Positions 18,192 through 49,625 of a stretch of 64,000 bases of DNA are shown one piece after another; position 1 is the stretch's first letter, and every line of letters starts with the position of its first letter. The notes beneath the pieces are model-generated. The model did not search any database, had not been told where the DNA came from, and saw only the letters and a list, made by a program, of their open reading frames with translations. Origin of the DNA: Ascidiella aspersa (Eukaryota); contig OZ004607.1 in NCBI GenBank assembly GCA_963924565.1, positions 11,842,001 through 11,906,000 on the forward strand. The letters are read 5' to 3'. The translations under genes and the position numbers were made by a program.

Positions 18192-18513
18192 CAGGGGTTC
18201 TTAAACTTTTTTCACCGCGGACCCCCCACATTATTTTTTGCTTCACGTGGACCCCTGTAGGCAAGAAATTATTAAAAATGACGTCTTAAATTGACGTCGC
18301 AATCAAATAGCCTGTCAGAAATGTGCTTATGATTTAAGTAAAAAGGAGTCTAACATCAGTGGTAAAACGTTTTATTTTTAATTAAACTCTTTTTTTTTTT
18401 AATTTGATAACTTTTTAAATGTACACTAATATTTTAATTTGGCCTTCATGGACCCCCTGAAATTAGTTCGCGGACCCCCAAGGGGTCCATGGACCCCAGT
18501 TTAAGAAACCCTG
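18192..18513. mobile_element. hAT-type MITE
   Basis: TIR CAGGGGTTCTTAAAC / GTTTAAGAAACCCTG, perfect TSD TGCTAAAA, subterminal GGACCCC repeats. Confidence 0.92.
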
Positions 18514-18614
18514 TGCTAAAATGATGGCTACCATGTGGTGCTTTAAAGCTAATGGCACATCGACTTATTTGCGATGTCCCGACTCAGGCAACGTCCTTCT
18601 AAGCCTAGGTCATA

Positions 18615-19171
18615 TAGTGGTTCTCAAAAATTGCTCGCAAAATAACACGTTGTTTTTACTCCTATCAATGGGACTGGTGCAAACTGCGACACAGTCTGCC
18701 TCTGCTTGGAGGGTAAAAAGCCGATCGTGATCGAAATCTTCACGGAAAACGTGAAACCTTTAACGAATCACTTAATTTGAGTGAAGCAATTACGAACTGT
18801 GACCTACAGCGCACAGTGACGCAGCAACCTGTAAAAACGTAATTCTCATTAGCACAACGCAAGACTATGACGTCACAATGCACAATTCCACTCAGAGCAT
18901 GCAATCATGTGAATGAACAACTAAACGCGTATAGGTCGATCCTGAGTTTGGCTATCTTTTTTTTGCCCACAATTAGGCATATGTACGAAATAGTTATTAT
19001 TATTGTGTTTGCTAAGCTTGGTTTGGAAAAGTAATTTGCTCGAAAATTTTGTTGCACATTTTTTTTTTTTTTTAGGAGCGTCGTGTTGATTTTTTGTTAG
19101 GTGCTTCGCGATCCCAGAAAATTGTCTCGCGGGTTCCAAAATGACCGCGGACCACAGTTTGAGAACCTCTG
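18615..19171. mobile_element. hAT-type MITE
   Basis: TIR TAGTGGTTCTCAAA / TTTGAGAACCTCTG; TSD unclear. Confidence 0.7.
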
Positions 19172-20297
19172 TTCTAGGAAAACCTTCCCCTAATTGTTTT
19201 ATGACCTAACTTTGTGACACCATTCCTGAAATAAAATAAACCCTGGAGCCGCCCCTGGTCACAAAGCAGGTAGATCTAAGAAACCTGCTGTTTTTACTGC
19301 AAAATTGTGAAAATGAAATGGAGTCCAAATACATTTAAGGAAACTTGTCAAAGCATTTTTTATTAAATTTTTTTCTAGTTAATTTACTTTTAAATTATAC
19401 ACCGAGGTAAACTAGGTCTACATCAACCACAAAAAACTAGTCCTCGTCGTCGAACCCCAATAAGTAGGTCAAGCATATTAACCAATATCAAATGTATTTC
19501 TTGTTATGGTGTCTGTAGTATTTACTGGCAGGATACGTGACACACAGCGACGTATAGAACACAAGTAATGCCGCCCCAAGTACTGCAAGAGTGGCGGTTA
19601 TATACAGGCACAGCAATACGTCATAAAGGTCGCACTCAACAATCCTATACAACACAGTATTATACAACAACTCTACAGTGTCAAAACCCTTTATCTCAGT
19701 ATAAATAAAACTGCTGTAATCTGTGCCAATAGTGAGGAGAACGGAGTCAGATTAAAACAGTAATTAGTAGGCTATTATTGAATGCCATAAAATTTGGACC
19801 TTGATCCTTTTGTGAGCGCTTGTGCATGACATCATAGAAATACGTTTGCTCTAGCGTGGTGAAACATTGTGTTATTAAAGGTGAGAAACAAGAAAACACT
19901 GGTAAAGATGCTTAAACAGGTTTAATTGTGCAGTATGATTTATTTATGTGCATCTTTATAGTTATGTAGCTTAACAAGAAATACTGGCCTAATAGCTCAT
20001 TTTTCCTCGGTTTAAATTGCGCAAAATCATCGTATACTGTTATCACAGTCCGCAAACAACTCGAGCACCCGATTTATCTCGTGAGTCAACACACTTACGT
20101 CCTTTGCGACTGATTTAGCACTGTTTAAAGTTCAGTATATGCGTATCCATTTACTTTGTCAAGGCCTCAATATAACATAACTAAAGTTAGCTGCAAAGTG
20201 AACTCTCTGTACGTACTTCGTTTGTTAAAACTCTCTGTACTTCGTTTGTTGCTTATTTCAAAGGTTTGTACATCGTTTAAAAATAGCACAAACTCAA

Positions 20298-28298: not shown

Positions 28299-28361
28299 TT
28301 GAGCAGTATTTTTTTAATAATTGTTTTTTTTTTATAATTTGTTAAATTTGTTGTTTTTTAC

Positions 28362-28367
28362 AATAAA
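28362..28367 (+). terminator. Candidate polyadenylation signal of C (40233-40238 for D)
   Basis: AATAAA about 63 nt after the stop codon. Confidence 0.45.
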
Positions 28368-29373
28368 TCAATTTCCGATGTTTAAATTTGGCGCTTGTCT
28401 ACATTTGAAATTTCTATAAAACATCGTAATTTTTTTAACAAAGCAAGAGAAAATAAAATGCCGCCACCAATCAACCGAATGGAGGTGATCTAGTAGGTAG
28501 GTCAATTTTCGTACTTTTGCTTACCTTTTAGGTTGACAGAGTGTTAAGAAAACATCCCTCGAGGTCGTTTTTCGTTTTTATAAAGTAATACGTATTCCAA
28601 ATGTTTCGTCCTTCATTACTTTTTTACTGGAGGTTCGAAAGGACAAAAAGTACAACTTTATGCATGACACCAAACGGTTACGCAAGTCAACCAATGTTTT
28701 GCGCTTCGCATAAACATCTGCTTATTAGCGACCACACCAAAACTTGCGATTCCTGTTTTCTTAACAACCATCGGTTTGCACACCAAAGATAACCTACACT
28801 CACAGTAGTGACTTAAAATTCAAAGCTGCCTGTTTAAATGCAAAAACAAGCAAGTTTGTAACCCAGAGAAAAGTACAAGAAATACCAATTTTAATTTTGA
28901 GGAATTATAGTATATTTGTTTTATAGAAGGGACAATAGATGGTGGAATAGTTATATGTAATTGCATATAATAAAAAACATTTAACAGAGTTCGCTATGTA
29001 AAAAACATTAAAAAAACTAAACAAAAATAACGAATATTTCAAAACATAAATAGCATTAAAATTAAATTAAACAAATCAGACGCATTCTTTAAGGAATTTT
29101 ACTATTAAACAATTATCTTATACACTGAAAAATATGTAATCTATTTACAGACCGCTAAAAGTGTACTTCTATCCGTACAATAATAGCATTTAGCTTACAG
29201 TATAATGTCATAATGTCACGACGAAAATACACGTGTTTTTGTTAAAACTCAAAGAAAAAGTTTCATCTTGATTAAAACATATACTTTTTTTTTAATACAA
29301 AAATATATTTTTTATACATTAAGAAATACTTTTATATATATATATAAATATCACATTGGCGGTTGGCCATTTC

Positions 29374-29489
29374 CTAAATAATATCGTCGTTTCTTGTGAA
29401 GATTAGAACAGCTGTGTTAAGGTCGTTGACAAATCTACCGTATTTAGGAAGTCTGTCGCTCAAAATGTGATCGTTTAAGCTGCTCCAAT
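29374..29489 (-). pseudogene. Orphan duplicate of the terminal coding exon of the intelectin-like gene
   Basis: Copy of 41244-41359 (WSSLNDHILSDRLPKYGRFVNDLNTAVLIFTRNDDII*) with its splice acceptor, carried inside the first unit of the tandem duplication. No upstream exons next to it. Confidence 0.85.
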
Positions 29490-30064
29490 CTAAATAGAGG
29501 CCGTATATTACCCTTAATTTAACAATGTTTGTTTGTCTTTTGCAATGTAAATATAGTTTATTGGTATTATGAACTTGTTATGTGTTCTAAGCATGCAGGA
29601 ATACGGAGATCGAGACAGACTTGGAACTATTATAGTCTTTAGTCTGTGCTACGCTCTTGTATCACCAAGTTGAGAACCGATAAGGCCGGGAACTGAAAAT
29701 CGTGAAAGTGAAGTAGCATATAGGTTGAAATATATGGTAATTTGATTTTTTTAAAAACGATTGCATTATATACACCCTATTTTGGTTACATGGATCGGTG
29801 AGATACTAGGCCGTGGAATTGTAGCCAGACCCGGAACATCGGAGTCCCATAATTTGGCAGGAGTATAGGACTCCACAATCGAATATTTTCGTGTTATCCA
29901 GAATTTCCAACACTTTCCCAGTTAAGAAGCCCTAATTACAAAAAATACAAGTTCTACCAACACGAAATAATATAGATATAAAATTAGCAAGAAAACACAA
30001 CTAGTTTGTTTAGATTGATGTGTTGTAAATGCCCACCGCCTACCGAAATGTTGTTGTGCTAAAA

Positions 30065-30386
30065 CAGGGGTTCTTAAACTTTTTTCACCGCGGACCCCCC
30101 ACATTATTTTTTGCTTCACGTGGACCCCTGTAGGCAAGAAATTATTAAAAATGACGTCTTAAATTGACGTCGCAATCAAATAGCCTGTCAGAAATGTGCT
30201 TATGATTTAAGTAAAAAGGAGTCTAACATCAGTGGTAAAACGTTTTATTTTTAATTAAACTCTTTTTTTTTTTAATTTGATAACTTTTTAAATGTACACT
30301 AATATTTTAATTTGGCCTTCATGGACCCCCTGAAATTAGTTCGCGGACCCCCAAGGGGTCCATGGACCCCAGTTTAAGAAACCCTG
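30065..30386. mobile_element. hAT-type MITE (duplicate of 18192-18513)
   Basis: Same TIR and TSD, inside duplication unit 2. Confidence 0.92.
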
Positions 30387-30487
30387 TGCTAAAATGATGG
30401 CTACCATGTGGTGCTTTAAAGCTAATGGCACATCGACTTATTTGCGATGTCCCGACTCAGGCAACGTCCTTCTAAGCCTAGGTCATA

Positions 30488-31043
30488 TAGTGGTTCTCAA
30501 AAATTGCTCGCAAAATAACACGTTGTTTTTACTCCTATCAATGGGACTGGTGCAAACTGCGACACAGTCTGCCTCTGCTTGGAGGGTAAAAAGCCGATCG
30601 TGATCGAAATCTTCACGGAAAACGTGAAACCTTTAACGAATCACTTAATTTGAGTGAAGCAATTACGAACTGTGACCTACAGCGCACAGTGACGCAGCAA
30701 CCTGTAAAAACGTAATTCTCATTAGCACAACGCAAGACTATGACGTCACAATGCACAATTCCACTCAGAGCATGCAATCATGTGAATGAACAACTAAACG
30801 CGTATAGGTCGATCCTGAGTTTGGCTATCTTTTTTTTGCCCACAATTAGGCATATGTACGAAATAGTTATTATTATTGTGTTTGCTAAGCTTGGTTTGGA
30901 AAAGTAATTTGCTCGAAAATTTTGTTGCACATTTTTTTTTTTTTTAGGAGCGTCGTGTTGATTTTTTGTTAGGTGCTTCGCGATCCCAGAAAATTGTCTC
31001 GCGGGTTCCAAAATGACCGCGGACCACAGTTTGAGAACCTCTG
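30488..31043. mobile_element. hAT-type MITE (duplicate of 18615-19171)
   Basis: Same sequence inside unit 2. Confidence 0.7.
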
Positions 31044-32169
31044 TTCTAGGAAAACCTTCCCCTAATTGTTTTATGACCTAACTTTGTGACACCATTCCTG
31101 AAATAAAATAAACCCTGGAGCCGCCCCTGGTCACAAAGCAGGTAGATCTAAGAAACCTGCTGTTTTTACTGCAAAATTGTGAAAATGAAATGGAGTCCAA
31201 ATACATTTAAGGAAACTTGTCAAAGCATTTTTTATTAAATTTTTTTCTAGTTAATTTACTTTTAAATTATACACCGAGGTAAACTAGGTCTACATCAACC
31301 ACAAAAAACTAGTCCTCGTCGTCGAACCCCAATAAGTAGGTCAAGCATATTAACCAATATCAAATGTATTTCTTGTTATGGTGTCTGTAGTATTTACTGG
31401 CAGGATACGTGACACACAGCGACGTATAGAACACAAGTAATGCCGCCCCAAGTACTGCAAGAGTGGCGGTTATATACAGGCACAGCAATACGTCATAAAG
31501 GTCGCACTCAACAATCCTATACAACACAGTATTATACAACAACTCTACAGTGTCAAAACCCTTTATCTCAGTATAAATAAAACTGCTGTAATCTGTGCCA
31601 ATAGTGAGGAGAACGGAGTCAGATTAAAACAGTAATTAGTAGGCTATTATTGAATGCCATAAAATTTGGACCTTGATCCTTTTGTGAGCGCTTGTGCATG
31701 ACATCATAGAAATACGTTTGCTCTAGCGTGGTGAAACATTGTGTTATTAAAGGTGAGAAACAAGAAAACACTGGTAAAGATGCTTAAACAGGTTTAATTG
31801 TGCAGTATGATTTATTTATGTGCATCTTTATAGTTATGTAGCTTAACAAGAAATACTGGCCTAATAGCTCATTTTTCCTCGGTTTAAATTGCGCAAAATC
31901 ATCGTATACTGTTATCACAGTCCGCAAACAACTCGAGCACCCGATTTATCTCGTGAGTCAACACACTTACGTCCTTTGCGACTGATTTAGCACTGTTTAA
32001 AGTTCAGTATATGCGTATCCATTTACTTTGTCAAGGCCTCAATATAACATAACTAAAGTTAGCTGCAAAGTGAACTCTCTGTACGTACTTCGTTTGTTAA
32101 AACTCTCTGTACTTCGTTTGTTGCTTATTTCAAAGGTTTGTACATCGTTTAAAAATAGCACAAACTCAA

Positions 32170-35100
32170 ATGCGTATTGCTTTTATTTTGATTTTGGGAC
32201 TTTTCCCGTTGTGCTTTGGCCAAAAGGGTCTGGTCAACTTTAACGCCTATAGACAAATCGGACTGAGCACTTACACCGATTTAAAGGAAGACTTGCACCC
32301 AAGAGCCAGTCGAGAAGATTTGGATGGGATCGTTGATTTTCTGAGCAAGTTCCACGGATCACAAAAATCAAGAAATGAAATTTTGCAGCACATTCAAGGG
32401 TTGGTTGTTTACGCTATAGTTCCGATTTATAAGAAACAGCAACCGTCCTTTTGTAATTATTAAACAGAATTATTAGATAGTGGGCCACTATTGGTCCCCT
32501 AAAGCAGGCACGTATAGTTTAACTAAGCAAAGGCAACGTTTTTTCACGCTCATCACGAACCTTATGTGGCTGTTTATATGTTTAGCCCATATTATGCAGA
32601 AATATTTTGGCCTTGAGCGCCGTTAGCACCATAAAACTCCCTAACAAAAATTTTTTAGCTAAACGGATGCAATTTGGCTTCCTTGGATCTTTGTTTACAA
32701 TTTTGACCCTAGTATTGACATATTGATTGTTGACGGCTATAAATATCTGCATCTTGTAACATATTATGATAAACAAATAACCAAGTTGACTACAGGTTAG
32801 GCACAAGACTGCAATCTCCCATGAAAGATTCCAAAGAGGTCGCAACCGAAGAAGAAATATGGAGTTGCTACACAAAATACCTGAAAATGATGATCGATTC
32901 TGCTAATGAAGTGCCATACGCCGTTCAAAGTAAGACCTGTGTGTTGCAAGTTGCAACTACCTAATTTAATATCTTGACATAAGTGCATCTTATAGTCACT
33001 GTTTTCAAATTGCATGATTTTTTTTAATTAAGTATTTTGGATAAAATGGTTTGACTCGACTTGGGTAGTTTAAACAAATGACTTGGACTTGGACTCAGAC
33101 TTCGCCAACTGGATTTGTTTCAGCTTTTTAAAATTAGGTTAGATTTAAAATTAGAGCATATCAGTTGTTGTTGCTGTAGTTGCTTCTGCATTAGTTCCAG
33201 ACCCTTCCTAACTATGAGTTTGACAGCGGTTCCTCGTTCAGTCGTTCCGCGATCCCATCCTTTTTGTCTGATGAGGGTTCAGGTATCCAAGGGTGGTAGG
33301 GTTAGCAGTTTGGTGGGGTTGGGGATGGAGTATCGCTGGGGGATAGCGAGGCGAAGGAAGAGGGGTTTGATTTTGGGGCAAGCTAATTCGGTGAGGGTGG
33401 GGTTATACTCGTTTATGATAGTCCAAGTTTGTTGATAATATGGCGACGGAAAAGCTGTATGGTGGAGAGTATTTTTAATACGGAAGTCATATTCAATGAT
33501 GGGCTTTGGGTGTCTGCGGGGAAAGTTATATTTAATGATGGGCTTTGTGTGTCTGCGGGGAAGTCCAGGTTACGTTGCTTAAGGTATAGGGGCCAATGAT
33601 AACGATGAGAAAAGAGATCGATGTAGAAGGGATGTTGACGACCGAGTAGCCCCCGTGGGGCGACTGGCCGCCAAGGGTTTCAAGGGGGGTGAGGGGGTTA
33701 TGGGGGCCGATAAACTATTTAAGTAATTTTAGTTTCATTTTTTTTCTTACCGGGTTTGGGAGAGAATAGACGGCAGCTAGTTGCGGAAAATAAAAAAAGA
33801 GTGGGCAAAAGTTAGGATGTGGGTAAGCCAGCGGTAGGCTATGGAATCAAACACTTCCCCGTCGCCAATTCGTCTGTTGTATTCGTAGAAGGTTTATTGC
33901 GCAAGGGCGTAGCAGTAAAGTAGTATAAAAGAACGATTTATTTAATATATAAAATTCTGTTGTTTGTCTTTACTGTTGCACGCAAAAAAGTTTGCTTGAT
34001 ACATTTTGCTGTTTTTTAATGGTTAAACATTTTAGTTTTTATGTAAATGACCTGACTTAAAGTGGACTTATTATGGCCTTGTTAAAACTTGGCTTAGCTC
34101 TCGACCATTAAAGCTTTTACTATTCGAAACTGAATAAATTGTGTTTGGTTGGATCTGTGGTAACTTATGGATAATTACTCGCAAAACGATACGGTAATAA
34201 TATAAAATGCTATCTTTGAATTGCTAAATCGAAAAAATTACATTATTTCTTTTAATTTTTAATATGTAATCAAAATTGAATTACGAGTAGACCTAACCGA
34301 AAGCAAAAGGGTTACTGAAATCCAGTAAAGATCAAAATCGTTTCTACACTCTTATCTACTTGTAACATTTTTCTAGGCACAGATTCATGGGGCAGTGTGG
34401 AGCCTGGTTGGCTGATAGGCAACGTTCGTTGGCCCGGACACTATTACGAATGCATTGATGTAAAGCCTGAAACCAACGATGATATGGACGGCAAATGGTG
34501 CAACTCTTACTGGGGATTTAAAGATATTGTAAGCGTAACTTAATCAGGGATGTATTTGCACTATCTGTGCGATGTTTCTATTTATCTGGAAACACTGACT
34601 GTTCAATGCAGATCATGATGATGATGGTTATCAAACAAATTGTTTTCCAAAATGTGGCTCGATTCTCCAAAAACAAGTTGTGCCGTGGCCCCAAATGTTT
34701 AAGAACCCAAATTTAGGAAGAAACAATGACGCTATACTCTTTTATTTCAATTTGCTACTGTCGTTTAATATTTTTTAGAATTACCCCTTGGGTTACCCAA
34801 TCGACATTAGCTTTGGCCTTTGCATGCCAAATGTCTGCACAAAGGAAGCTATAGAGGCCCTCTTGTGGATTTCCATAGCTGGGAACGACACGGGTGCAAG
34901 GTTGCCACTGCAGTCAGTCTACTGCCCGGAGCCTCGCAGCGCTTATCAGATGTCCACCGCTACTATAATCGCCATGTAAGTGTATGTGAAATATAACATG
35001 AATATTCAGGTTAGATTAACTGTTACATTGAATGTCCTGAAGCGCTTTTCTTCCGTCCTAAATCGCCAAACTAAACAGAATTTCGAATTGTTCAAATGCT

Positions 35101-38100
35101 AAATCGTTAAACGCTAAATCGATGTGAAGTAGATTAGTGAATTCAATAATAAGTTGCCCATACCGCAGAGTCGTTTCCACATTTATTGGCATTTTGTTGG
35201 TGTCTGGGACGATTTGTGACATTACATTGAGGAGGAACCAACAAACATGCGATTCTACAACTGGTAAATTGTGTTTCATGATTTCAACAAACCCACAAAA
35301 ACATAAGTTAAAGCAATATTTATTAATTTTGAAAAATACGTTTTCCGGCTTGTGGACAGCTAAAACCTAACAAAATGTGTTAAACAAAAACACGTTTTTG
35401 ACCTTTCTTCGTAACAAAAATTAATTGTACTGACACCAATCTATGGTAAATATTTAACTGTTGAAAAATACTGAATTTTTACAAATATAAATTTAGTGTT
35501 TTATAACCTAAAGCATAGATTCGTTGCTATTATTTTTTAGTGAAAGTGGCTTTATGTTTCTCGGTAATTTCAAATGGTGAAATAATTTTGGACCTCGACA
35601 AAAAACGTGGCGCAATCCCTGTGCTTGATGGAATTCGTTTTATTTCTACTACGTGGGTAATTCTTGGCCACTGTCTGATCTTCATGTTATATGGACTTGG
35701 TAATTAGACTGGTTGCTGTTTATAATTTGTTTAACTAAAAACATAATTGTGAAATCATTGTCGGCAGATAACGCAGGATATGCAGCTAGAGTAAGCCGAG
35801 AATCTTGGAGCCTTCTTCCTCTAATCAACGGGACGTTTTCGGTGGATACCTTTTACTTTCTTAGTGGCCTCCTGGTCGCTTACCTGGGTATCAAGCATTT
35901 AAACAAAACCAAAGGAAAAATTAATATACCGCTCATGTATTTACAACGGTATATGAGGTTGGTATGGCATCTATGTTAGGGCTATCAGATTACGTACGTT
36001 AAAAACGTTCGTTAAAATTAAGTAACGAAAATGGGAAAAAGACGAATGGTTTGTTAATTAGCTGTTAACAGTACTGATTGAGTCGGTTCTCAAAGATTGT
36101 AATGCACATAAAAGCACAGTTAATACCCTTAAAGATTCAATTTCTTTTCAACAGATTAACGCCTGCCTACGCCTATGCCATCTTGTTTTCCGTGGGGCTT
36201 TATAGGTATGTAGGACAAGGTCCCTTTTGGCAGGACATGGCCGAATTTCATGAGGAATCATGTCGGTATGACTGGTGGACCAATTTACTTTACATTACAA
36301 CCCTTTATCCTGCAACTCACGAGGTAGCCTACTTTAAGCTTATAGGAAATTTTTAATTATTTCCAGAACCTTTTTCTAAATAAAGAATTGCACCATGTAG
36401 GCCTAATGCAAACCATTTTTTCATACATTTCAATTTTCTAGTGCTTTGGAGTTGCGTGGTATCTCAGCAATGACATGATCTTTTACATTCTTTCTCCTTT
36501 CGTTCTACTTCTTCTGTACTAGTAAGTTAAATATTATAGGGTTGTAAATAACGCAGCCCATATATCGGCGTTGTCTATTTTAAAATGATAAGAATTCACT
36601 TAAGTTTTTCGGAAAAAAGACTTGATCTTCCCTAATTCATTTGGACAGATGGCATGACTTAGACGTCTTTTGCGAATTCTATATAGGCCTACTTGACTTA
36701 AAGTAAGGTGTTTGAATTTAATACATTTTAGTAAATTAGGATTAAATTTAACCATAAATTACTAATTGTTTCGGATTTGAATGTTTGCTTTGTGAAATGT
36801 TGCTCAGAATAGAACGCGTTTACCAATTTCATTAAATTCGTATTTAGCCTTATGCAAGTAGTTTGACATGGATTTAATTATCTTTCAAGCACCCTGTATG
36901 TTTTCATGCGAGAGAGGGCCAGTTGTTTTGCCCAACAAATCATTTCACATGTCTTGCTTTTTATTGAAATGTGTTTTTTAATTAAACTCTGTTTTAATGT
37001 TTAAATAGGTTTTCAACAAATGTACAAGCATTTTATTAGTAGTGTTTTTAAAGTGTTCAGTTTGTTTTCACTGAACTTTCTATAAGTGAAACCCATGGCA
37101 CGTGGTTGGTAAATCAATTTCAAAGTTATTTCGGTAGTTTTATTAAATAAGGTGTTCGTTATGTTTTTGCGTTAAATAAACCTAATATTATATTTACTAA
37201 CTCAATATGCAACGTCAACACACCTGTTATCTGTATTTCAATGGAACTCGATAAGTTTAGCGTAATTAGATTACATACTTTTCTGCAGTGCTTTCTACGT
37301 TGGACTTGGAATAATCTGTTTCCTTATAGTTGGTTGTCAAGTTGCGTTGGCCCTTCTTGCGTCACACAACAGCATTCAGCCCAATCCTATTGGCATAATG
37401 CAAACAATGACAGTGTAAGTCATTAGTGATTGACAAGTATGCAGGCTTGCACAGTTGCACACTATCATTTAGAGAGTTATAATTCTGGTAATTAATATTA
37501 TATGGCATTCATTATATGGCATTCACATTTGTCTTGCTGTGTAGGCTAGTTCGGGTGATTCTTACGTTAAAATTATAACCCTGCAACTTCACCTTCTGCT
37601 TAACTTGTAGCCCACCCTACAACTTTACCTTCTGCTTAACGTGGAATCACGCTTGTGTAGAATTGTTTTTTAAATCATGGAAGTATTTTTATCACCGTGG
37701 AATTTCGTTTAATACTTAGCTTTCATTTTATGTGTTTTTTTTTAGCTGGATTCGAATATTTTTACCCGAAGTCCCAGAAGAAAGACCTTTAAGCGAAATA
37801 TTCATGTACGATATGTACTTCCCGCCTTGGACGAGATATGCGATATATTTGATTGGGATGCTCACTGGTTATTTGCTTTATATGAAGAACGGAAAAGTTA
37901 AAATGAACAAGGTTAGATCCCTAAAGTCATTTGAAGGGTCAGTTTTAACCTATTAAAAGATGCGCTAAATGCTGATATAATTTCAAAGTAATGGAATATA
38001 AATTAAATTGGGTTATTTCAGCAGAAAAATCCAATCTATTAAAAATATGGTGGTGTGACAAAGTTATAATAGTTAATTTACATCAACCTTTAACAACCGT

Positions 38101-40169
38101 TGGGTTATTCGGGCACCAAACACAAATATGTTAGGGCAAATTTAAGGGCTCGAGGGGTATTCTATAAACAGGAAATATTTTTTTACGTTACGTAAAATAA
38201 AAAAACAAGCAGAAAATGTAACGGTGATAATTTGTGATATATAATAGGATACAGTTTTATTCTGTAGGTTTTTTAAAAGCTTCTAGTGGCCACATACAAT
38301 AGGAAGACATGAGTTTGCTTATTGTTCGTATACCGGTTTGAGGTATATGGTCTTTAACTTAACGCTGCAAATTTTTAGTTGATTGTTGCCGTCGGCTGGA
38401 TTCTCTCAACCGCGTTGGCCGCTGCGATAATCTACGGATTGCTCTACCATGTGCAGAACGTGGAACCCGTGAGTGACCAAATGACGGCTTTCTACCACGG
38501 TGCTTCGCGGCCTGTGTGGGCTATTTGCGTGGCTTGGGTTGTGGTCGCCTGCTCTTCAGGCTACGGAGGTATAGGCAAATGCTGCATTCCACAGTGTTGT
38601 AATATTGTTGTTGCGAGTAATAGGATTAATTAGGAAAATAAACAAAAAGTTAAAAGACAAAAATTTACAGTTAAAGAACAGAATAAAACTGATGGAAAAA
38701 ATATAAAAAAATGTCTTTTCATTTGCTACCAAGTTAATGATGTCGTTTAAGCTGATTTTGTTACATTTAGGTCCTATTACAAAGTTTCTCGATTGGAAGA
38801 TATTTACGCCCCTGAGCCGGCTGACATACAGCACTTATCTTTCCCACTTGATGATGCTGTACTACTACCTCGGGTCGCAGGAGAAACCCATCCACTTTCT
38901 CATGCTCAATATGGTGTATATATATTTAGGTACGTTAGAACCAGTTAATCACATATCTCTGTAGGTTAAACTTAGGAGACATTTATTTAACTAATAAATG
39001 TTACATCATCTTAGTTTAAAGACAATGACTTGACTCAAGTAGACACGGATTTACTTAAGCTTTTCGTTGTTGTGTTGTTTTGAACTGGGATTTCGACTAC
39101 TTTATTGTTAAAACTGAGACCTAAAAGTAAAAAAATCACCTGTTTTCAGTGACAAAATGCACCTGGATCTTTCCAACTGTCACTTCGACTTTTGGAGAAA
39201 AAAAATTTTCGTTATAATAACGCACCTTTGTAAATGCAAATATTATTATTATTATTTGTTCTACATTAATTTGTAACTAGTACCTCTAAACATCAGGAAG
39301 ATTTTCGCAAAAGTTTTTTTTGATGTCCATCCGCTTGATATGGGCCAACTGAATCACTTGTCTGATTACAAATATGTTTCGTTTTCTACAGCTACTACTG
39401 TACTTTCATTTGGAATCGGATTTCTGCTCGCGCTCGCTGTGGAGTGGCCAATGATCGGTCTGCTCAAACTTGCTTTTCCACCAAAACGAGCCACAACTCG
39501 ACCAATCAGCAACGAATTGAACATGGAAGCGATCAACGTGAGAGAAGATTTCACCGGGGATCATCACGATTTAAACAAAGGTGCCTATTTTGAGTTTTTT
39601 TTGTCCTTTTCTTAATTTGATTGCAGGTTAATTGTTTAAGACAGTGGTTCTCAACCGGGCTGCCGCGCACCTCAGGGTGCCATTTCTAATTCCCAAGGGT
39701 GCGAAAAGATATTTAAGAATCTGTGAGAATCTGATTTTTGCTTAACTCTTATAACTCTTTGTGTAAGATTAGAGTGGAATAAATCCAATTATAGCTTCCT
39801 ACGTTGTGTAGAGTTGATGTGTGTTGTTCCAAGTTTTATTATTTGTGAGGGGTGGCGCAAGCCATAAACCTCTGGTTTAAGGTGTTTCGAATGGTGTTAA
39901 ATGCTCAAATAATTTGTGGTCTTTGAATTTTGTCGACCGAAAATCGTAAACAGTTTATCAAGCGGGAAAACGCATGGTATTCAAAATAAGACTATTAACC
40001 CCAAACATATTATAATTTAATATTTTTTACAGTTGGGGCTCACAACAATGTGGGCTTTTTACCAGAAAACGGAGTGACCGTCCAGCACACCGATTTACCA
40101 AAAAGTGGCCCACCGTCTTATCACAGTGATGATGTTGCTGAACTGACAGAAAAAGTGCACAAGTTTTAA
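32170..40169 (+). CDS. nrf-6: NRF-6/OACYL-like paralog D, tandem duplicate of C (one V>M change), about 790 aa
   Basis: Exons 32170-32399, 32796-32929, 34377-34528, 34779-34975, 35169-35263, 35541-35699, 35768-35957, 36155-36323, 36442-36521, 37289-37414, 37746-37911, 38379-38568, 38771-38929, 39392-39580, 40033-40169. HLMVLYY in C is HLMMLYY in D. Confidence 0.9.
39642..39874. mobile_element. hAT-type MITE in intron 14 of D
   Basis: Duplicate of 27771-28003. Confidence 0.9.
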
Positions 40170-41243
40170 TTGAGCAGTATTTTTTTAATAATTGTTTTTT
40201 TTTTATAATTTGTTAAATTTGTTGTTTTTTACAATAAATCAATTTCCGATGTTTAAATTTGGCGCTTGTCTACATTTGAAATTTCTATAAAACATCGTAA
40301 TTTTTTTAACAAAGCAAGAGAAAATAAAATGCCGCCACCAATCAACCGAATGGAGGTGATCTAGTAGGTAGGTCAATTTTCGTACTTTTGCTTACCTTTT
40401 AGGTTGACAGAGTGTTAAGAAAACATCCCTCGAGGTCGTTTTTCGTTTTTATAAAGTAATACGTATTCCAAATGTTTCGTCCTTCATTACTTTTTTACTG
40501 GAGGTTCGAAAGGACAAAAAGTACAACTTTATGCATGACACCAAACGGTTACGCAAGTCAACCAATGTTTTGCGCTTCGCATAAACATCTGCTTATTAGC
40601 GACCACACCAAAACTTGCGATTCCTGTTTTCTTAACAACCATCGGTTTGCACACCAAAGATAACCTACACTCACAGTAGTGACTTAAAATTCAAAGCTGC
40701 CTGTTTAAATGCAAAAACAAGCAAGTTTGTAACCCAGAGAAAAGTACAAGAAATACCAATTTTAATTTTGAGGAATTATAGTATATTTGTTTTATAGAAG
40801 GGACAATAGATGGTGGAATAGTTATATGTAATTGCATATAATAAAAAACATTTAACAGAGTTCGCTATGTAAAAAACATTAAAAAAACTAAACAAAAATA
40901 ACGAATATTTCAAAACATAAATAGCATTAAAATTAAATTAAACAAATCAGACGCATTCTTTAAGGAATTTTACTATTAAACAATTATCTTATACACTGAA
41001 AAATATGTAATCTATTTACAGACCGCTAAAAGTGTACTTCTATCCGTACAATAATAGCATTTAGCTTACAGTATAATGTCATAATGTCACGACGAAAATA
41101 CACGTGTTTTTGTTAAAACTCAAAGAAAAAGTTTCATCTTGATTAAAACATATACTTTTTTTTAATACAAAAATATATTTTTTATACATTAAGAAATACT
41201 TTTATATATATATATAAATATCACATTGGCGGTTGGCCATTTC

Positions 41244-44200
41244 CTAAATAATATCGTCGTTTCTTGTGAAGATTAGAACAGCTGTGTTAAGGTCGTTGAC
41301 AAATCTACCGTATTTAGGAAGTCTGTCGCTCAAAATGTGATCGTTTAAGCTGCTCCAATCTAAATAGAGGCCGTATATTACCCTTAATTTAACAATGTTT
41401 GTTTGTCTTTTGCAATGTAAATATAGTTTATTGGTATTATGAACTTGTTATGTGTTCTAAGCATGCAGGAATACGGAGATCGAGACAGACTTGGAACTAT
41501 TATAGTCTTTAGTCTGTGCTACGCTCTTGTATCACCAAGTTGAGAACCGATAAGGCCGGGAACTGAAAATCGTGAAAGTGAAGTAGCATATAGGTTGAAA
41601 TATATGGTAATTTGATTTTTTTAAAAACGATTGCATTATATACACCCTATTTTGGTTACATGGATCGGTGAGATACTAGGCCGTGGAATTGTAGCCAGAC
41701 CCGGAACATCGGAGTCCCATAATTTGGCAGGAGTATAGGACTCCACAATCGGGAGTCGGATTCTAGTTTATTATTTCAAGTCGGACTCGGGTTGTTGTAA
41801 ACCGACTCCGAAGCCCTGGAATTAATAATGGTACTTACAAGAAAAATCACCACAGCGTTGATAGTCAAAATTTTGTAAGTTTGCAGATCCAATACAGAAT
41901 TTAGAAGGGTCGGCGGTGGAGTCAACTCTATCAAACATAAAAAAATAAAATTAGGAATAACTGATTATAGCCTAAGTATCTGGAACAAATTTATTTCTCA
42001 AACTTAAACTTGTAATTTTAAAAACATCAGCAGAACGCCAAAACTAAAACAAATGTATAACAAGTTAAAATATTTTCGATTAACTTTACAGGCGATTTAA
42101 ATAGAGGTTTAACCTACTTAACACCAGGACACATTGCGTATGGGTTTCCATTAGAGTCGTATGCTCTGAACTGAATGTAACCTGGAGTCACCCCGCTATT
42201 CTGGGAGTGTGAATCATTGCCTTTGGCTATGTTTACAGGGAAGACAAGCGGCTGTGGTTTGTGAAGAATACGAATGTCCGTGGTTGCTGAATTGACTACA
42301 ACATAACAATGAAAATCATAATGCGTTGGTGATCTGTCATTTTTATTTTAAATTTAAGATTAACAATGAATTTTAAAGCGAAAAAGGTCGCGTAAATCGA
42401 CATTATTGTGATTAGGACGTTTCAAAACCTATACTTGTATCATTCACTGATGATGATACACGCAGGTATCAAAAGGTCTTAATCAAGATGATGTTGATTT
42501 ACTCGATCTTTTTGACTTTAAAATTCATTATTAAGATTAACAAATGTTGATACTTTTTGTGATATGGGCCTATCGTATTTCTATCATTTTCTATAAGAAA
42601 TAAAGTACTTAGTTTTTAAACACTACAAAGAAAATTTTACCAATTGCATCCACAATTGCTTTTAAAACATTGTCCAAGTGGCTTGAGTCAAATGGGTTAG
42701 AGTCTTTCCTAAACACATTTAAAGACGTTATGGTTTAAACTTTAAAGTATACACAATGTAATAAATCCGAATACTTGGCAAGTAGAAAGTATCCAAAAAG
42801 AGTGTTCTTTGTTTCCCTATTAAGCACCATTTCATTCGTCAGATTTGCTGAACTGTAAGTGGGGTAGGCAGAAAAACTATTCGAATATGAATTTAAAACC
42901 TAAGAAAAAAACAATAGGTTAGGTAATATAAACTATACCACGTTTTCGGTTACAATGTGTTAACATTTTTTGGCAAAAGCTGAAAGCAATTTATTTTGTC
43001 GGTCAATATAACGACAAATTATAACAAGAGTAGTCCATATGTTCTCTATTTTAAATGTACCTTTTTCGACCAAATTTGAAAGAATACTTGAGCAACGGAA
43101 GGAATGGACGCTCCCCTATTGTAAACTTGATGTCCTCTTGCTTGGTAAAACATTTCTTTGTATAAAAACGTATTGACGTATAAACTACCATGAGAACCGC
43201 CACTTGGAGATAATATTGATTCAGCCTAAATGATAGTGAGAGCATTTGTACAATTTTATATTCTAACAAAATCAATATACGCGGCAAAAATCAGTGTGCG
43301 GTAATTATCATACTTTCATTTTGAAAGAAGTTGATGCTCCATCAATTGCGTTGAACGAAAGAAGAGTTATGAATGGTTGAATAGCTGCACTACTTATATG
43401 ATAGGTCAAAGAATCTCTAAGATAAATAATGAATAGTTATATTATTTTGTTATATGTTATAAATACATATATATATTTTATATTAATTATTGCCAAAAAA
43501 CAACAACAAATGCTTCCAAACGTAATGACATTTACCTATTTCGTATGTCGTTTGCCAGAAAGTATGTTTATTGTAGTAGAGGGTGAAGTTTTATGAAAGC
43601 TATTTAACAATTGCATTTGACTTACGTATAACTCTTTCCATATGAAATCAAATTGTAAGGCTTTCCGTTTGCACTGAACGACACCTGAAAAATAGTATTG
43701 CATTAAACATTAATGAACGAAATCAATCTTTGGATTACTTTGGTAAATAAGCGATGCATTAAAATACATAAAAGTGTAAGTCAGTCACATGCCTTATTTC
43801 CGCCTTTAAAAAGGTTGCTTCCATTATAGATGAGAGTCGCATTTAACCCAGCGTCATAGTCGTATGTACTCCAATTGGGCACAAGCGAGGTTATTGAGAG
43901 ATTCTTTTGAAACTCAAGCAGTATTGTTTTGTCAACACCTTGATGGAAAATAAGTTATATGGAACGTCGAACTAACTTTGAATGATTTTAAGCCTTTGCT
44001 AGTTCTACTTTAATTTCAACTGTATTAGCCATACCAACTGTATTTAGCTGTAAAAAAAATTGCAGGGTTTTTTTATTGTTGGCTAAGTAAAGCATGCAAA
44101 GTTACATTACAGAGTCAACTGACCTACAATGCTAAGGCCACGAAGCGGTGCGTAAAAATAGAACAACGCTGACAATGTCGATCCGTATTCTTTCAGAAAT

Positions 44201-47200
44201 TTGCTTGAGGTGTAATATTGTTGCCTTGTGGTTGAGCTCAGATAATCGATAGGGACCGAGTTTGGAACATGAGAAACCATGATATCTGTTGCCTAAAAAC
44301 AGTTTTATTGTATCTTCAGAGCAAAAGAGCCTTGATGCTACAGCATATTGTGGTAATTTCCACCAACTGTGCCAACTTCAAATAAACGATAACAAAACTA
44401 TATTTGTACAAGCAAAGCAAAACTATTCGTACAATGGTAGCGTTTAACACTTGGGCAACAATGCGAGCTTAGGTCTAGGTAAATTGTTTTATAGTAGAAA
44501 ATATGTCTTTTACCTACAATTGTACGTGGAGTTACTGACATTTGTGCAGTAACTTTTAGAAATACCTTTAAACTGCTATAAGCTGAGTTTTTATAATCCA
44601 AAGATGTTGCGCTGCGAGCGTTTCCGAAGGTGCTGGTGCTTTCCCAATTAGAAGAACCTTTTCATGCCAAGAACACCATTAACCTAATGAGCTATTGCAC
44701 ATGTACATCAGCATACCTACAGTTCACCACTAAATATAACGAGTTTAATTATAAACAGAAAAGTACACATGACATTTTATGCTTTAAATCATTAAGTTGA
44801 TATGGAAATTTACTGCACCACCTCTTCTATTGAAGCGTGCAGCCTGGCTGTATGGATTCCGTGACCAGTTGTCATAAATCGTTGAACATTTCTGTCCAGG
44901 AGCCTCGTTCACTATAGATGCTACTAATGTCCAGCCTCCCCCTGCTGTTTTCATGTCACAGTAAACCTGAAGTACAGTACAGGTCAACTACCCAAACAAA
45001 CTCTAGGAAGAATTAAGGATTACTGTAGGATTTTTTTAGATTGGTGAATAATTTAACGATTTTATCTATTCAAACAGCTAGATGGTATTACTTTATGAAG
45101 AAAACAAATGTAACAAAAAATTCAAGGAAAAAAGCTTATCAGATTGAAACCTCCGAATTTTTTTAGCTATATTTTTTAACATTAAAACGCTGTGAAAGAT
45201 TTGCAAAAAATACATAAAATAAATGCAAAGCTCTGTTTAAATTCCATTTCAACGTAAAGCTAAATCATATTTTAATTTTCAAATCAGGCAAACCATTTTT
45301 ATACCGTTTGAAAGCTATTATACCCACTTGAATGTGACATACTTTGGAAGCATGGGTATTTTTGTTTAAATAAATTTCACCATGATATATCCTGTAAAAA
45401 ATCTGTTTCTTTGTAAGCTGATTCAAATGCACGCGTTTGCTAAATTTTATGAGTATATATAGACGAATACATTTGAAACCGAGAACATTTTATGGTTATC
45501 CTAGGCATCACATGGCTACGGTATACTGATTTAAAAGAAACCCATACGCACTTCGATTCCATCAGATCCTGCAGACAAATTAATCTTGTAGATTCCAGAT
45601 TCGTTAAAGCCGCTTTTTTTCAATTCCAAGCATGATTTGTAGTTGATAACTGTTAGCAATAGGTGAATGTATGGTTAGAGCAGTGATTTTCCACCGGTGT
45701 TCCGCGGAACACCAGTGTTTCGTGCAAAATTATTAGGTGTTCCGCAAAACATGATCACTGGAAAAAATCAATGGATTAAAGTAGCTTTTATATTCTGTAA
45801 TTGATTGTGATTTGTTTAATTTATTATTATGTACGGTATTACGACTTGTGTACAGGAGAGGAATTCTGTGGGCCTGTTGCTGTTTTACAATAATACGACC
45901 GAATATCAGTTATGTGCTCATTCAAACAGATCCAAATGTCGCACAACGACAAATTAAAAGTGAATACATTGTTGTTTTAATGCAATATTCCCTATAAACC
46001 TTTATTTGGTGTTCTGCAAATTTCTTTTAAAGCATACGGTTAAGTGTTACGTGGCATAAAAAGGTTGAAAAACACTGACTTAGAGTACATTAACTCTAAA
46101 ATGATGCGCCTAAGAAATTCTCAAGTGTGACTATAACGCATTTTTGTAACAACATATTATGAGATAAATTTAATGTCTGTTTGGCCCTGCACGGAAAAAA
46201 CACAAAAGGGTACTTGATAGAAGCAACGTAAAAGAATCATCAGTGTTTTATATCAAACAAAATATTAGAGTAAAAAAAAATTCACATATGACCTGCAGGT
46301 TCTTAAGTGTCATAGTTTATGTTGTGATTTTTCCTTTTTTTTAGTTTTCGAAAAGCTGACCATAATATTCTCTGTTGTTTTTATAAACAAAATACATTTG
46401 AATTCCATTGCCGGCCAACCCGTCGATCGTGAGCCGTATGCAGCTCATTTACAGTTTTTCTCGGCACTTACGTTTCCATTTGTAGGGTTTTTTAGGATGT
46501 AAAGTGTCGATTTTGTTTGCTTAAGTTACCGATTCATCGCCGGTTCCGACTCAGATTCAGTGGTCGGCAAACTGTAGACCGGGGCTCTAATGTGGGCCGC
46601 AGAGCCATTTTTAGTGGGCCGCGAGGTACTTTTGAATAGTATTGTTATCATGTAGTTGTGGGCCGCATGATAGCCGTGTAGATTAATTGCAAAAAATTGA
46701 AAAAAATTATATATTCTACGTTTTATAGTATGTTTTACAATTTTACATTATGGCATGGCAGTGTTCAAGACGCCGTGTAATATTTCACCTTTAAATCAAA
46801 TATCCTGAATACGTTCCTGTTGTCATGGTGGTTTTACGTAGTGGACCTTCAATAGCTCTGAAAAGAGTACTTTGGGCCGTGACAAAAAAATTTTGCCGAC
46901 CACTGTTTTAAATGCTTTGACAACGTTATGACTGTTTTATTCTATGGTGTGGTAAGGAATTCGCGTTTATAAGTTGCCTATACTCAAATTGTTACGGTAG
47001 AACATTTGCAATAAATCAAGTTGAGCAAAGGTACATATATAAGTGAAGTAGAATCGGGGTGAGGCTCATTTCTGCTCATATATAAAGTGAGGATATTCAA
47101 GGTTAAAAAAGTAAGAAATGCGGCTTTTGGTATTTGAATGGTTGGAAATGTCTTTCTTACATTAACAAATACCAGCGAAGGTAATATTTACTTTACGCCG

Positions 47201-49625
47201 TAAATAAATTACAAAGTAGATATATAATTTAGCAATTCGTCTAACAATTGCAACAAACAATTTCAATAATTATTACTTACCTGAATCACTTCCGGAAGGG
47301 GCTACACCAACAGATAAAACAGCATTCGTTTCCTGTACGTAAAGCCATTTGAATTATGGGGTCGAAATTAAAAATCCTATTGATTTTTAATAAACTTTTA
47401 TTTGAAGTATCTCAATATATATAATACAAAAAAACATTACAAACAAAGGTTGTTTCATTGAAACAAGAGCTGCGTTATCAACAGTCAGTAAAGTAGTCCT
47501 AGCGTTTGCATCGGCGTACCTTTGTCTAACATCGGTTAAAACAGGGGTCGGCAACCTTTTTCCAGTCGCGGGCCAAAACCAAACTCAGAAAGATCTCTGC
47601 GGGCCGCTCATAATGATAACTAAGAATTGTGTTATTTTCATGTTAAAACAACTGTGAACCAGCCGGGCCTCGGATCGTAACAACATTTAAGAAGGCTGTA
47701 AAGTGCAAAGAGCGAAAAAAATCGTTTGTTTGGTTTGAAATTCGAGTTCACACGTCGTCATCCATACCACTAACGAAAAGTAATAAAAGTACTTTGAGCG
47801 AACACGCAAACATTTAAAATTAACCTAGCTCAGTGTTGGCACACCTGGCGAGTGAAGCGAGCGCGATTTTTTTGGTATACCTGCATTTCTATTAAATTTC
47901 TTGCAAGTTTTTATTACATTGCCGAAAATAAAAAAAAATGTTAAAAATACACGTCCAACATTTTGAATACGTTTTCCGTGACGCACTTCGCTACCTTCCT
48001 AGGCGCAACGGTAAAGAAAATTTTCGCACTTACGTAGTTAAAATAGTCAAAAAGTATGTAAAACGGACTCGTGTCCAAATTATCAAAGAGGCGGCGGGCC
48101 GGATGAATTACATCGGCGGGCCCGATCGGGCCGTAGGTTGCCGACCCCTGGGTTAAAACAAAAAAACTAAGATAGGTTTTTGTGCACATCGTTAACCGTT
48201 ACTCATATAGTAAAATTAAACACTTAACAAATATAAGGTTAAACTACATGCTGTATGACATTACACAAATGATGTATATAACGGTTTCAAGCGGAAAATA
48301 GCCTAATGGAAAATAGCCTAATGATCATTAACTCAATCCTTTTCTAACGAAGTACGTTTTTTATCTTATATGTGGGCTGTATAGTAAGTCGTCGCAGGCC
48401 AGTGGTTCTTAACCGCGCCCATTTTGGGATTATAATTGCAACTTTTGGGGTGCTACGTTAGTCAGAACAATATGGTAGTTGTCATATGCAGTTGTGCGCA
48501 TGGGATGGACACAAGAGTAAGTTGTGCACATGCGATCTAACATGTGCAATTGGGTCGGACAACACTCCTACACATACAGCCGTGTACCAACTCTGTTTTT
48601 GCCAACCTTCACATTGAAACTGCGCAATTTTTTTTTAGTTATGTTGTTTCCTGTTTTAGTGACATTTTTAGCGCAAAGTCCTTTTGTGTACCATTGCATA
48701 TTTTCTGTCTATTAGTAATAGATTATAACGAACAACATTTTGGTGTTGGTTCGAAATGCTTTGCCAATTCGACCTTTTGGGTATGATATGCGCTTTGCGC
48801 AATGATATGCGTTTTAACATCAATCAAATACTTTTTAATACTTGATGGGCCGATTAACTTAGGATTACCTTTCTGAAAACACTATACACTAAGATCGAAA
48901 GGTATTAACTTTATCGTAATCGGTAACCTACCGTGTAGTTTAGGACAGAGGCGACCGCGATGACAAGAAGCAGTATTGTTGCGAATCCGAGCAGAAGTAT
49001 CACAATGAGGCCAGATTTTGACTGACTATCTGATTGTGATGCAAATATTTATATTAAGAGTATAACAAGTTACTATATGTCTTATTTAACAGAGTGCATC
49101 TTTTTGGTGCGACAAGACTCAACGACGGCCTAATTTAACTTGGTATACTGCACTATAAAGAAACCCCTTCTACATAAGTCTTTATAGCTTGTTAAAAGTT
49201 GAAGTCACATAGGAAATATGCATTGAAATTTCAACATTTTGCCAAAATCGCTCGACCAAGTTAATTATCGTTATTTTCAAGTATAATATATTTGCTTCAT
49301 TTATTTACTTTTAATGTTTCCCAATTTTTTTTAAGAAATTTACTATTCATTATTTAGTTTACCTACTTGTAAATCATTCCTATATTTTAAAATTCGCATA
49401 TGTATACAGGATGTCAATCTCAATCGTTTATTGGGACGTGGGAAGGAATCGTTTATCTAAGAATAAAATCGAACCTTGGCTGGGTTTTACATCTTCCTTG
49501 TTGGTTTCAACTGGGCTAGTTTTTGTCATCTGAGGCTCCTCGTAGATCGCGCTGCTTTCTTCGAACTGGGGTTTGGCCTTGCTGGAACCGTTTTGATTTA
49601 CATAGTTGTTGTCGGGACGAGACAT
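41244..49625 (-). CDS. ITLN-like: Type II transmembrane intelectin-like (fibrinogen-related lectin) protein with internal insert, 16 exons, about 617 aa
   Basis: Exons 49625-49475, 49029-48932, 47332-47281, 45649-45552, 44966-44822, 44657-44566, 44292-44124, 43938-43793, 43684-43626, 43416-43314, 43225-43061, 42899-42775, 42708-42641, 42295-42118, 41927-41839, 41359-41244 sum to 1854 nt in one frame. Intelectin motifs in order: SCLELK..GIYKI, VYCDMKTAGGGWTLVAS, NWESTSTFG..SATSLDYKN, HVPN, PGYIQFR..AMCPG, CIG, RCGDFS.W, AVLIFTR. Transmembrane segment GLIVILLLGFATILLLVIAVASVL. Confidence 0.88.
41678..41818. mobile_element. GGAGTCGG-type MITE remnant cut by the duplication breakpoint
   Basis: Ends ACCGACTCCGAAGCCCTG. 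Only its left half is present at about 29808-29880. Left boundary approximate. Confidence 0.55.
42365..42529. repeat. Imperfect foldback element with a decayed hammerhead-like core (possibly Penelope-derived)
   Basis: Arms start AATGAATTTTAAAG and end CTTTAAAATTCATT and pair along most of their length. CTGATGA-T-GATAC-ACGCAG-GTATC-AAAA at 42447-42474. Confidence 0.7.
45681..46077. mobile_element. hAT-type MITE
   Basis: TIR CAGTGATTTTCCACC / GGTTGAAAAACACTG; decayed TSD GGTTAGAG/ACTTAGAG. Confidence 0.8.
46558..46905. mobile_element. hAT-type MITE
   Basis: Perfect TIR CAGTGGTCGGCAAA and subterminal GGGCCGC repeats. Confidence 0.85.
47542..48150. mobile_element. hAT-type MITE, family 2
   Basis: Perfect TIR CAGGGGTCGGCAACC and perfect TSD GGTTAAAA. 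A truncated relative is at 61789-62042. Confidence 0.93.

What the first reader, a model, noticed from the sequence alone, without database searches (positions are those of the whole stretch)
42641..43938. About 220-aa unrecognised domain inserted inside the intelectin fold
Seen: exons 8-13 (666 nt; GVDKTILLEF...GGNKVSF...PSVAQVFFQIW...NTLFGYFLLAK...VLKAIVDAI) sit between the 'LF...P' segment and the 'P.VFPV' segment, which are nearly adjacent in the about 313-aa canonical intelectin. The block is bounded by phase-1 introns on both sides, as expected for a shuffled module. It has no cysteines and several N-x-S/T sequons. Inference: a separate folded domain grafted into a loop of the lectin.
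Basis: partly seen in the sequence, partly recalled or inferred. Interest (0 to 1): 0.72.

Follow-up and report, generated by a model that had tools for sequence, protein, structure and literature searches.

The report
Shuffled unnamed domain inside sea-squirt intelectin
A probable sea-squirt gene for an intelectin-type immune lectin carries six extra exons for a separate 222-residue domain of no named family, which also occurs in tandem arrays, other sea-squirt surface proteins, bacteria and viruses, and which likely took over binding from the lectin's eroded sugar site after possibly arriving from a virus.

Summary
Confirmed. A 16-exon minus-strand gene (49625-41244) gives a 617-aa type-II membrane intelectin. 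Exons 8-13 (666 nt, phase 1-1, no Cys, 5 sequons) are coding: three close paralogues keep all six, and RNA reads of a close paralogue splice them in, with no 7-14 skip listed. The window gene itself had no exon reads. The block is an independent domain (homologue model pLDDT 89) with no Pfam, NCBIfam or PDB sequence match. It sits at the same site in Ciona, Clavelina, Phallusia and Styela intelectins, which form one clade. It also forms stand-alone tandem arrays with the same intron pattern, joins CUB, Sushi and adhesion-GPCR proteins, and occurs in aquatic bacteria and viruses. Insert-bearing intelectins lack the lectin-site His (0 of 37); the window copy has also lost the domain's acidic motif. 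Ligand binding and viral origin are inferred. The insert probably equals the 'additional sequence' of Ciona intelectins (recalled; papers not held), and this scan found the same design in two other genomes. New here: the module's genomic mobility, RNA inclusion, clean loss in one paralogue, and microbial/viral relatives.

The parts
49475..49625 (-). Exon 1: predicted cytoplasmic tail (aa 1-50) with a YxxP motif
   Evidence: YxxP also in C3 paralogue first exons
48932..49029 (-). Exon 2: predicted type-II transmembrane anchor
   Evidence: Kyte-Doolittle 19-mer peak 3.29 at aa 58, next best outside 1.38
47281..47332 (-). Exon 3: short stalk (least certain exon)
   Evidence: splice sites and frame only
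44124..45649 (-). Exons 4-7: fibrinogen-related N-terminal half of the intelectin fold
   Evidence: PF00147 weak on exon 5, E 0.0018; homologue alignments
43793..43938 (-). Exon 8: inserted domain, phase 1-0, GC donor; holds the eroded DGGxDMYDxGN motif
43626..43684 (-). Exon 9: inserted domain, phase 0-2
43314..43416 (-). Exon 10: inserted domain, phase 2-0, conserved PF motif
43061..43225 (-). Exon 11: inserted domain, phase 0-0; eroded GADG and DPS motifs
42775..42899 (-). Exon 12: inserted domain, phase 0-2, GYxLL motif
42641..42708 (-). Exon 13: inserted domain, predicted closing helix, phase 2-1
42118..42295 (-). Exon 14: intelectin C-terminal part resumes
   Evidence: 28 matches in the genome
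41839..41927 (-). Exon 15: region of the canonical ligand site, here D-P-S-K in place of N-x-E-H
41244..41359 (-). Exon 16: C-terminus and stop
   Evidence: about 73% identical in C3 paralogues

Best explanation
The six exons encode a mobile, symmetric (phase 1-1) extracellular domain of no named family, predicted to fold on its own, that was likely exon-shuffled once into a surface loop of an early ascidian intelectin, is spliced in, and likely serves as the ligand-binding head in place of the lectin's eroded sugar site. Shown: coding exons, conserved site in four ascidian genera, one clade, stand-alone copies with the same intron pattern, inclusion in paralogue mRNA, loss of the canonical His in all insert-bearing proteins. 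Predicted: helix / beta-sandwich / helix fold whose two ends rejoin an intact intelectin scaffold. Inferred: the ancestral domain binds Ca2+ and a glycan through its five conserved acidic residues; the window's sub-clade, which has lost these too and gained a membrane anchor with a YxxP tail, acts as a diverged cell-surface recognition or adhesion receptor with a changed, probably Ca-independent ligand. Odds: module insertion 0.9; routinely included 0.8; domain is a binding head 0.55; ligand is a glycan 0.4.
For: Paralogue exon conservation and selection. RNA joints on paralogue locus L005: 7-8 19 reads, 8-9 6, 9-10 6, 10-11 8, 12-13 23, 13-14 9; no 7-14 joint among the 15 rows listed. Same insert in Ciona, Clavelina, Phallusia, Styela; insert clade UFBoot 98 in a 51-row scaffold tree. 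428 profile hits; among the 157 proteins held, 27 have intelectin parts, others carry up to 8 tandem copies or CUB, Sushi, VWD/trypsin, WSC, kringle, GAIN-7TM partners. Of 19 stand-alone genomic copies, 17 have internal phases 0-2-0-0-2 at the same profile positions, 15 start and 17 end in phase 1, 11 have the full series. One paralogue lacks the block cleanly, with a single 1,017-bp phase-1 intron. His of N-x-E-H: 0 of 37 insert-bearing proteins; E-H present in 4 of 6 insert-less database proteins and 5 of 6 short genes of this genome. In viral contigs 72 of 78 full-length copies are C-terminal, two database copies follow a phage tail-collar domain, and bacterial copies sit in large secreted Ig/PKD proteins: positions typical of binding heads (established knowledge).
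Against: No reads on the window gene's exons in about 6% of one RNA run; the spliced reads differ from L005 at many sites, so they come from a related paralogue, and the 11-12 joint was not listed. No binding or metal data. 12 of 37 insert-bearing proteins keep the Glu and 4 keep Asn/Asp plus Glu, so the lectin site need not be dead in all. The insert-less paralogue also lacks N-x-E-H. The window copy has 0 of 5 conserved acidic residues, its C3 paralogues 1 of 5, so it may be a spacer. Six short intelectins have no intron at the site. The spliced aligner mis-called both outer ends on the window control, so outer phases of stand-alone copies are predictions. Both structure models are of homologues (P0035, P0003), not of the window protein.
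Confidence: 0.62

Rival explanations
1. The domain is real and shuffled in, but in this sub-clade it is a structural spacer or oligomerisation unit, and any binding is by the intelectin scaffold or none (pseudo-lectin).
For: 0 of 5 acidic motif residues in the window copy; 8 of 14 intelectin copies in this genome have at most 1; insert evolves faster than scaffold among the C3 trio (0.48-0.60 vs 0.26-0.49); one paralogue lost it; five sequons.
Against: The scaffold's own site is also eroded; hydrophobic core motifs are kept and dN/dS stays below 1; 13 of 21 database intelectin copies keep at least 4 of 5 acidic residues.
Confidence: 0.22
2. The block is an optional cassette: splicing in or out makes long and short lectins from one gene.
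For: Phase 1-1 symmetry keeps the frame; a weak GC donor on exon 8; a genomic copy without the block exists.
Against: Paralogue reads give 19 (7-8) and 9 (13-14) inclusion joints and no listed 7-14 joint (listing needs 3 reads). Depth is low and from one sample.
Confidence: 0.08
3. The domain is a worn carbohydrate-enzyme module (galactose-mutarotase-like beta-supersandwich, as in GH65/GH94 N-terminal domains) and may act catalytically or as such an accessory domain.
For: All top VIA-align rows are of this kind: best Z 9.6, rmsd 3.5, 176 aligned, 5% identity; Foldseek best E 4.7e-4, TM 0.33; conserved Asp residues.
Against: Z is close to the 7-8 that unrelated models typically reach; no sequence match; tandem arrays and fusion to receptors fit a binding module better.
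Confidence: 0.06
4. The exons are chance open frames or decayed sequence in a long intron.
For: No reads for this gene; no Pfam match.
Against: Conserved exon lengths and phases, purifying selection, spliced paralogue reads, homologues in annotated proteins; 4 of the 5 alleles listed in insert exons for another individual are synonymous, the fifth R to K (only 40 of 270 variant rows were shown).
Confidence: 0.02

Closest known systems
Canonical intelectins / X-type lectins (human ITLN1 4wmq/6usc, Xenopus XEEL 4wmo, lamprey 7e1e; short ascidian forms such as Ciona intelectin-1b P0202, Styela P0201)
   Same: Both halves align; the homologue model matches at TM 0.87-0.89 of the target; core Cys and CGDF kept.
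   Different: About 240 extra residues at one loop; N-x-E-H replaced by D-P-S-K; HEN of the structural Ca region replaced by VNE; one Cys pair lost together; membrane anchor instead of signal peptide; many more introns than the short genes of this genome.
Long, uncharacterised ascidian intelectins (Phallusia 'cortical granule lectin-like' P0037, Ciona LOC100185757 and LOC100185179, Clavelina LOC143452591, Styela LOC120332903)
   Same: Same domain at the same site; P0037 groups with the window protein at UFBoot 99. 10 of 34 have an internal hydrophobic stretch like the window's, 13 of 34 a collagen-like tail.
   Different: Most keep the acidic motif that the window clade has lost. Databases call them uncharacterised and name no domain at the insert.
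'Additional sequence' of Ciona intelectins (Yan 2013, PMID 23643964; Hayashibe 2017, PMID 28656472)
   Same: Recalled from the 2017 abstract: an additional sequence reported only in ascidian intelectins; probably this insert. Seen here only as reference-list entries.
   Different: Papers not held, so identity is unchecked; I do not recall them describing it as a mobile domain with bacterial and viral relatives.
Galactose-mutarotase-like beta-supersandwich (N-terminal domains of GH65/GH94/GH116, e.g. 5h3z, 7fe3)
   Same: Antiparallel beta-sandwich followed by helix; best Z 9.6, rmsd 3.5, 176 aligned.
   Different: 5% identity, TM at most 0.39, Z near background; homology not established.
Uncharacterised phage proteins A0A8S0HZG8, A0A6J5PYY2, A0A6J5NIC1 (BFVD)
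   Same: Foldseek E 4e-12 to 1e-8, TM 0.58-0.67, 14-20% identity: very likely the same domain.
   Different: Viral, unnamed function, no lectin scaffold.

Membership tests
Intelectin (X-type lectin) | Fibrinogen-related N-terminal half | tested here: met
   PF00147 on exon 5 (E 0.0018, below cut-off) and on homologues (E 2e-7 to 2.5e-9); 55-59 of 135 identical to named ascidian intelectins
Intelectin (X-type lectin) | C-terminal intelectin part completing one fold | tested here: met
   second stretch to XEEL/ITLN1; homologue model TM 0.87-0.89
Intelectin (X-type lectin) | Ligand-site residues (N260, E262, H263 recalled; E274, W288, Y297 from PMC12800186 passages) | tested here: not met
   D-P-S-K at the N-x-E-H position; no Glu at the E274-equivalent; a Trp follows CGDF
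Intelectin (X-type lectin) | Structural Ca2+ ligands (HEN motif and following Asp residues; roles recalled) | tested here: inconclusive
   HEN is VNE; the Asp of DxWS, DYK and CGDF are kept
Intelectin (X-type lectin) | Secreted protein of about 300 aa | tested here: not met
   617 aa, internal hydrophobic anchor at aa 58-76
Intelectin (X-type lectin) | Trimer and Ca-dependent glycan binding | not testable with these tools
   three chains exceed the complex-folding limit; binding needs an assay
Class 1-1 shuffled extracellular module | Flanking introns of the same phase (1-1) | tested here: met
   window and C3 trio; 15 of 19 stand-alone copies start and 17 of 19 end in phase 1 by prediction
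Class 1-1 shuffled extracellular module | Tandem duplication and use in unrelated architectures | tested here: met
   up to 8 copies per protein; CUB, Sushi, VWD, kringle, WSC, adhesion GPCR partners; arrays on C6, C2, C1
Class 1-1 shuffled extracellular module | Pre-existing phase-1 intron at the acceptor site | tested here: inconclusive
   empty-site paralogue has one but nests inside the insert clade; six short genes have no intron there
Galactose-mutarotase-like supersandwich / GH65-GH94 N-terminal domain | Shared topology at a score clearly above background | tested here: inconclusive
   Z 9.6, rmsd 3.5, 176 aligned; typical background best 7-8
Galactose-mutarotase-like supersandwich / GH65-GH94 N-terminal domain | Catalytic residues or activity | not tested
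   no residue-level alignment was available

The most novel reading that the evidence does not exclude
Ascidians took an unnamed Ca/glycan-binding head domain from an aquatic virus, filled it with five introns, and spread it as a new phase 1-1 module through their innate-immune and adhesion proteins, where it replaced the sugar site of a whole intelectin subfamily and turned some members into membrane receptors.
Probability: 0.25. Interest if true: 0.82.

Novelty: new variant of a known kind. Interest (0 to 1): 0.57.

Why it matters
[quoted passage not shown] It splits the ascidian intelectin expansion into short canonical lectins and a larger set of two-domain proteins (secreted with collagen tails, or membrane-anchored) whose usual sugar site is altered, so 'intelectin' labels in ascidian immune studies may not mean galactofuranose-type binding. 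If the viral origin holds, it is a dated case of a horizontally gained domain becoming an exon-shuffling module.

Tried and rejected
Single insert exons against Pfam: 0 of 5 matched (exon 9 was too short to give). Insert of four homologues against Pfam, NCBIfam and PDB sequences: only weak chance rows, best E 0.043. 21 virus-type copies against PHROGs: no family matched more than 2 members. Exon 11 against the 5.8-billion set: nothing (weak evidence). ESM Atlas: best feature scores 0.89 and 0.81, structure TM at most 0.34: leads only, not used; the 0.88-0.89 rows were cnidarian clusters and were not followed. No RNA holder was listed for the window gene and the one RNA run had no exon reads: no evidence on its expression. 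No solved structure of the domain was found, which does not show the fold is new. Empty-site paralogue as the ancestral state: rejected, it nests in the insert clade with modest support (84/68). A specific viral sister group: not resolved (SH-aLRT 49.6 and 0); P0069 matched viral contigs only through its N-terminal 60-97 residues. Nine paper searches listed nothing on this insert; subscription papers are not covered. No complex was folded.

Full report
Observation. The finding lies on the minus strand in a 16-exon gene from 49625 to 41244 that gives an open 617-aa protein. Exons 8-13 sum to 666 nt, enter and leave in phase 1, and code for no Cys and five sequons. Exon 8 uses a GC donor. Exon 2 codes for a hydrophobic anchor behind a 50-residue tail, so the product is predicted to be a type-II membrane protein. 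The host is probably a phlebobranch ascidian: the nearest named protein is from Phallusia (UFBoot 99).

The exons are real. Three paralogues on C3 keep all six with the same lengths and phases, and GT where the window has GC. dN/dS in the insert is 0.24-0.26 against them and 0.48-0.60 among them. One RNA run, about 6% read, gave no exon reads for the window gene. Laid at 82% likeness on paralogue locus L005 it gave stranded spliced joints at the predicted boundaries: 7-8 (19 reads), 8-9 (6), 9-10 (6), 10-11 (8), 12-13 (23), 13-14 (9), 14-15 (11), 15-16 (7). No 7-14 joint and no 11-12 joint was listed. These reads differ from L005 at many sites and so come from a related copy.

It marks a subfamily. 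Of 15 further paralogue intervals tested in this genome, 12 hold the domain (one partly), 2 only a faint trace and 1 none. Named database proteins with the insert come from Ciona, Clavelina, Phallusia and Styela. Against XEEL the Clavelina protein has 252 residues where XEEL has 12. In a 51-row tree of the scaffold alone, rooted on a frog protein, insert-bearing genes form one clade (UFBoot 98) apart from four short intelectins; rows with under 170 aligned residues and P0108 were left out. The paralogue without the block has one clean 1,017-bp phase-1 intron at the site but nests inside the clade, as does insert-less P0199, so these are likely losses. Six short intelectin genes of this genome span the site in one exon, so an ancestral intron there is not shown.

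It is an independent, mobile domain. A four-sequence profile found 428 representatives; I saw the best 150. Of 157 proteins held, 27 have intelectin parts; others carry up to eight tandem copies or partner CUB, Sushi, VWD/trypsin, WSC, kringle and GAIN-7TM domains. This genome has arrays of at least 6, 10 and 3 copies with no intelectin halves in the fetched stretches. A phase-free spliced alignment of 19 such copies gave internal phases 0-2-0-0-2 at the same profile positions in 17, a phase-1 start in 15, a phase-1 end in 17 and the full series in 11. The method recovered the window's internal exons but mis-called its outer ends, so outer phases are less sure.

Structure. A stand-alone Phallusia copy folds with pLDDT 89 and pTM 0.87 as helix, about 11 strands, helix. 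The full Clavelina protein (pLDDT 83) rebuilds the intelectin fold from its two halves, TM 0.87-0.89 to human ITLN1, XEEL and lamprey lectin. No Pfam, NCBIfam or PDB sequence matches. The best solved-fold likeness is the galactose-mutarotase-like supersandwich of GH65/GH94 enzymes, Z 9.6, rmsd 3.5, 176 aligned, 5% identity, little above background. Three viral models match clearly, E 4e-12 to 1e-8.

Outside animals. A motif scan found 96 related stretches in viral contigs, some labelled giant-virus genomes; in the 80 kept, 72 of 78 full-length copies are C-terminal. Ascidian copies plus seven anonymous animal-type copies form one clade (SH-aLRT 88.9) that joins virus-type copies apart from bacteria (85.1); the sister group is unresolved (65 of 315 rows; one search agrees at 0.86). 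Direction is not shown, and other animals are not excluded, since 278 hits were unseen.

Mechanism. The domain conserves DGGxDMYDxGN, GADG and DPS; stand-alone copies here average 4.7 of 5 acidic residues. Such clusters often bind Ca2+ and sugars (inference), and the tip position on viral proteins and in secreted bacterial proteins fits a binding head. The scaffold's N-x-E-H is altered in the subfamily: His in 0 of 37, Glu in 12 of 37, against E-H in 5 of 6 short genes here. Residue roles for N260, E262 and H263 are recalled; E274, W288 and Y297 as site residues are from passages of PMC12800186. I infer that binding moved to the inserted domain. The window clade has lost both sites (0 of 5 acidic residues) yet stays under purifying selection, so it likely binds something else as a surface receptor, or uses the domain as a spacer (rival, 0.22).

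What is known. Passages read: PMC10433773, PMC10980280, PMC9682848, PMC12800186, PMC6321704 (22 tunicate intelectins, citing Yan 2013) and PMC9434060; none of those passages describes the insert. Yan 2013 and Hayashibe 2017 were not seen (for the latter); I recall the 2017 abstract naming an 'additional sequence' in ascidian intelectins, which is probably this. Two earlier scan notes report the same design in other genomes (seen after my reading was formed).

Verdict. A real, conserved domain insertion: a new variant of intelectin, probably noticed before as sequence, built on an unnamed mobile domain family with microbial and viral relatives. Interest 0.57.

Noticed in passing
window 18008-29881 and 29881-41751: Tandem duplication of 11,874 bp at 99.93% identity (5 mismatches, 3 gaps); it ends inside intron 15 and leaves an orphan copy of exon 16 at 29487-29377. 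Run X1 has a contig break at 41751 and about double depth inside the unit, while a contig of run X2 crosses the boundary: possibly a polymorphic duplication.
   Followed up: partly
window 38379-40170 (+), inside the duplicated unit: 3' exons of a multi-pass membrane protein that resembles NRF-6/O-acyltransferase-like proteins (recalled); one exon gave no Pfam match.
   Followed up: partly
G000:C6:945001-990000, C2:25745001-25795000, C1:25763001-25773000, C6:20.93-21.03 Mb: Genes made of tandem arrays of the same unnamed domain (at least 6, 10 and 3 copies; several further single-copy loci), most with the acidic motif intact.
   Followed up: partly
G000:C3:3154411-3155762 (L058): Intelectin paralogue that lacks the whole six-exon block, leaving one phase-1 intron.
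   Followed up: yes
G000:C3:26.22-26.24 Mb (L060, L061): Two paralogues in which the domain has five exons, not six, with one intron apparently lost and one shifted.
   Followed up: no
G000:C2:28.6-29.2 Mb: Cluster of about ten long intelectins with an eroded domain, related to Ciona LOC100185179.
   Followed up: partly
Database proteins P0001-P0004, P0017, P0020, P0022, P0023, P0029, P0191-P0193, P0196: 13 of 34 insert-bearing intelectins have a collagen-like N-terminal tail, a ficolin-like design, although a passage of PMC6321704 says intelectins lack collagen repeats.
   Followed up: no
Proteins P0039 and P0097: P0039 is an intelectin with two tandem inserted domains; P0097 is a Ciona adhesion GPCR with the domain at its N-terminus.
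   Followed up: no
window 41797, 42264-42554, 46338-46919, 47502-48374: High-copy short repeats, some palindromic, in the introns; they account for all RNA reads laid on the gene.
   Followed up: no
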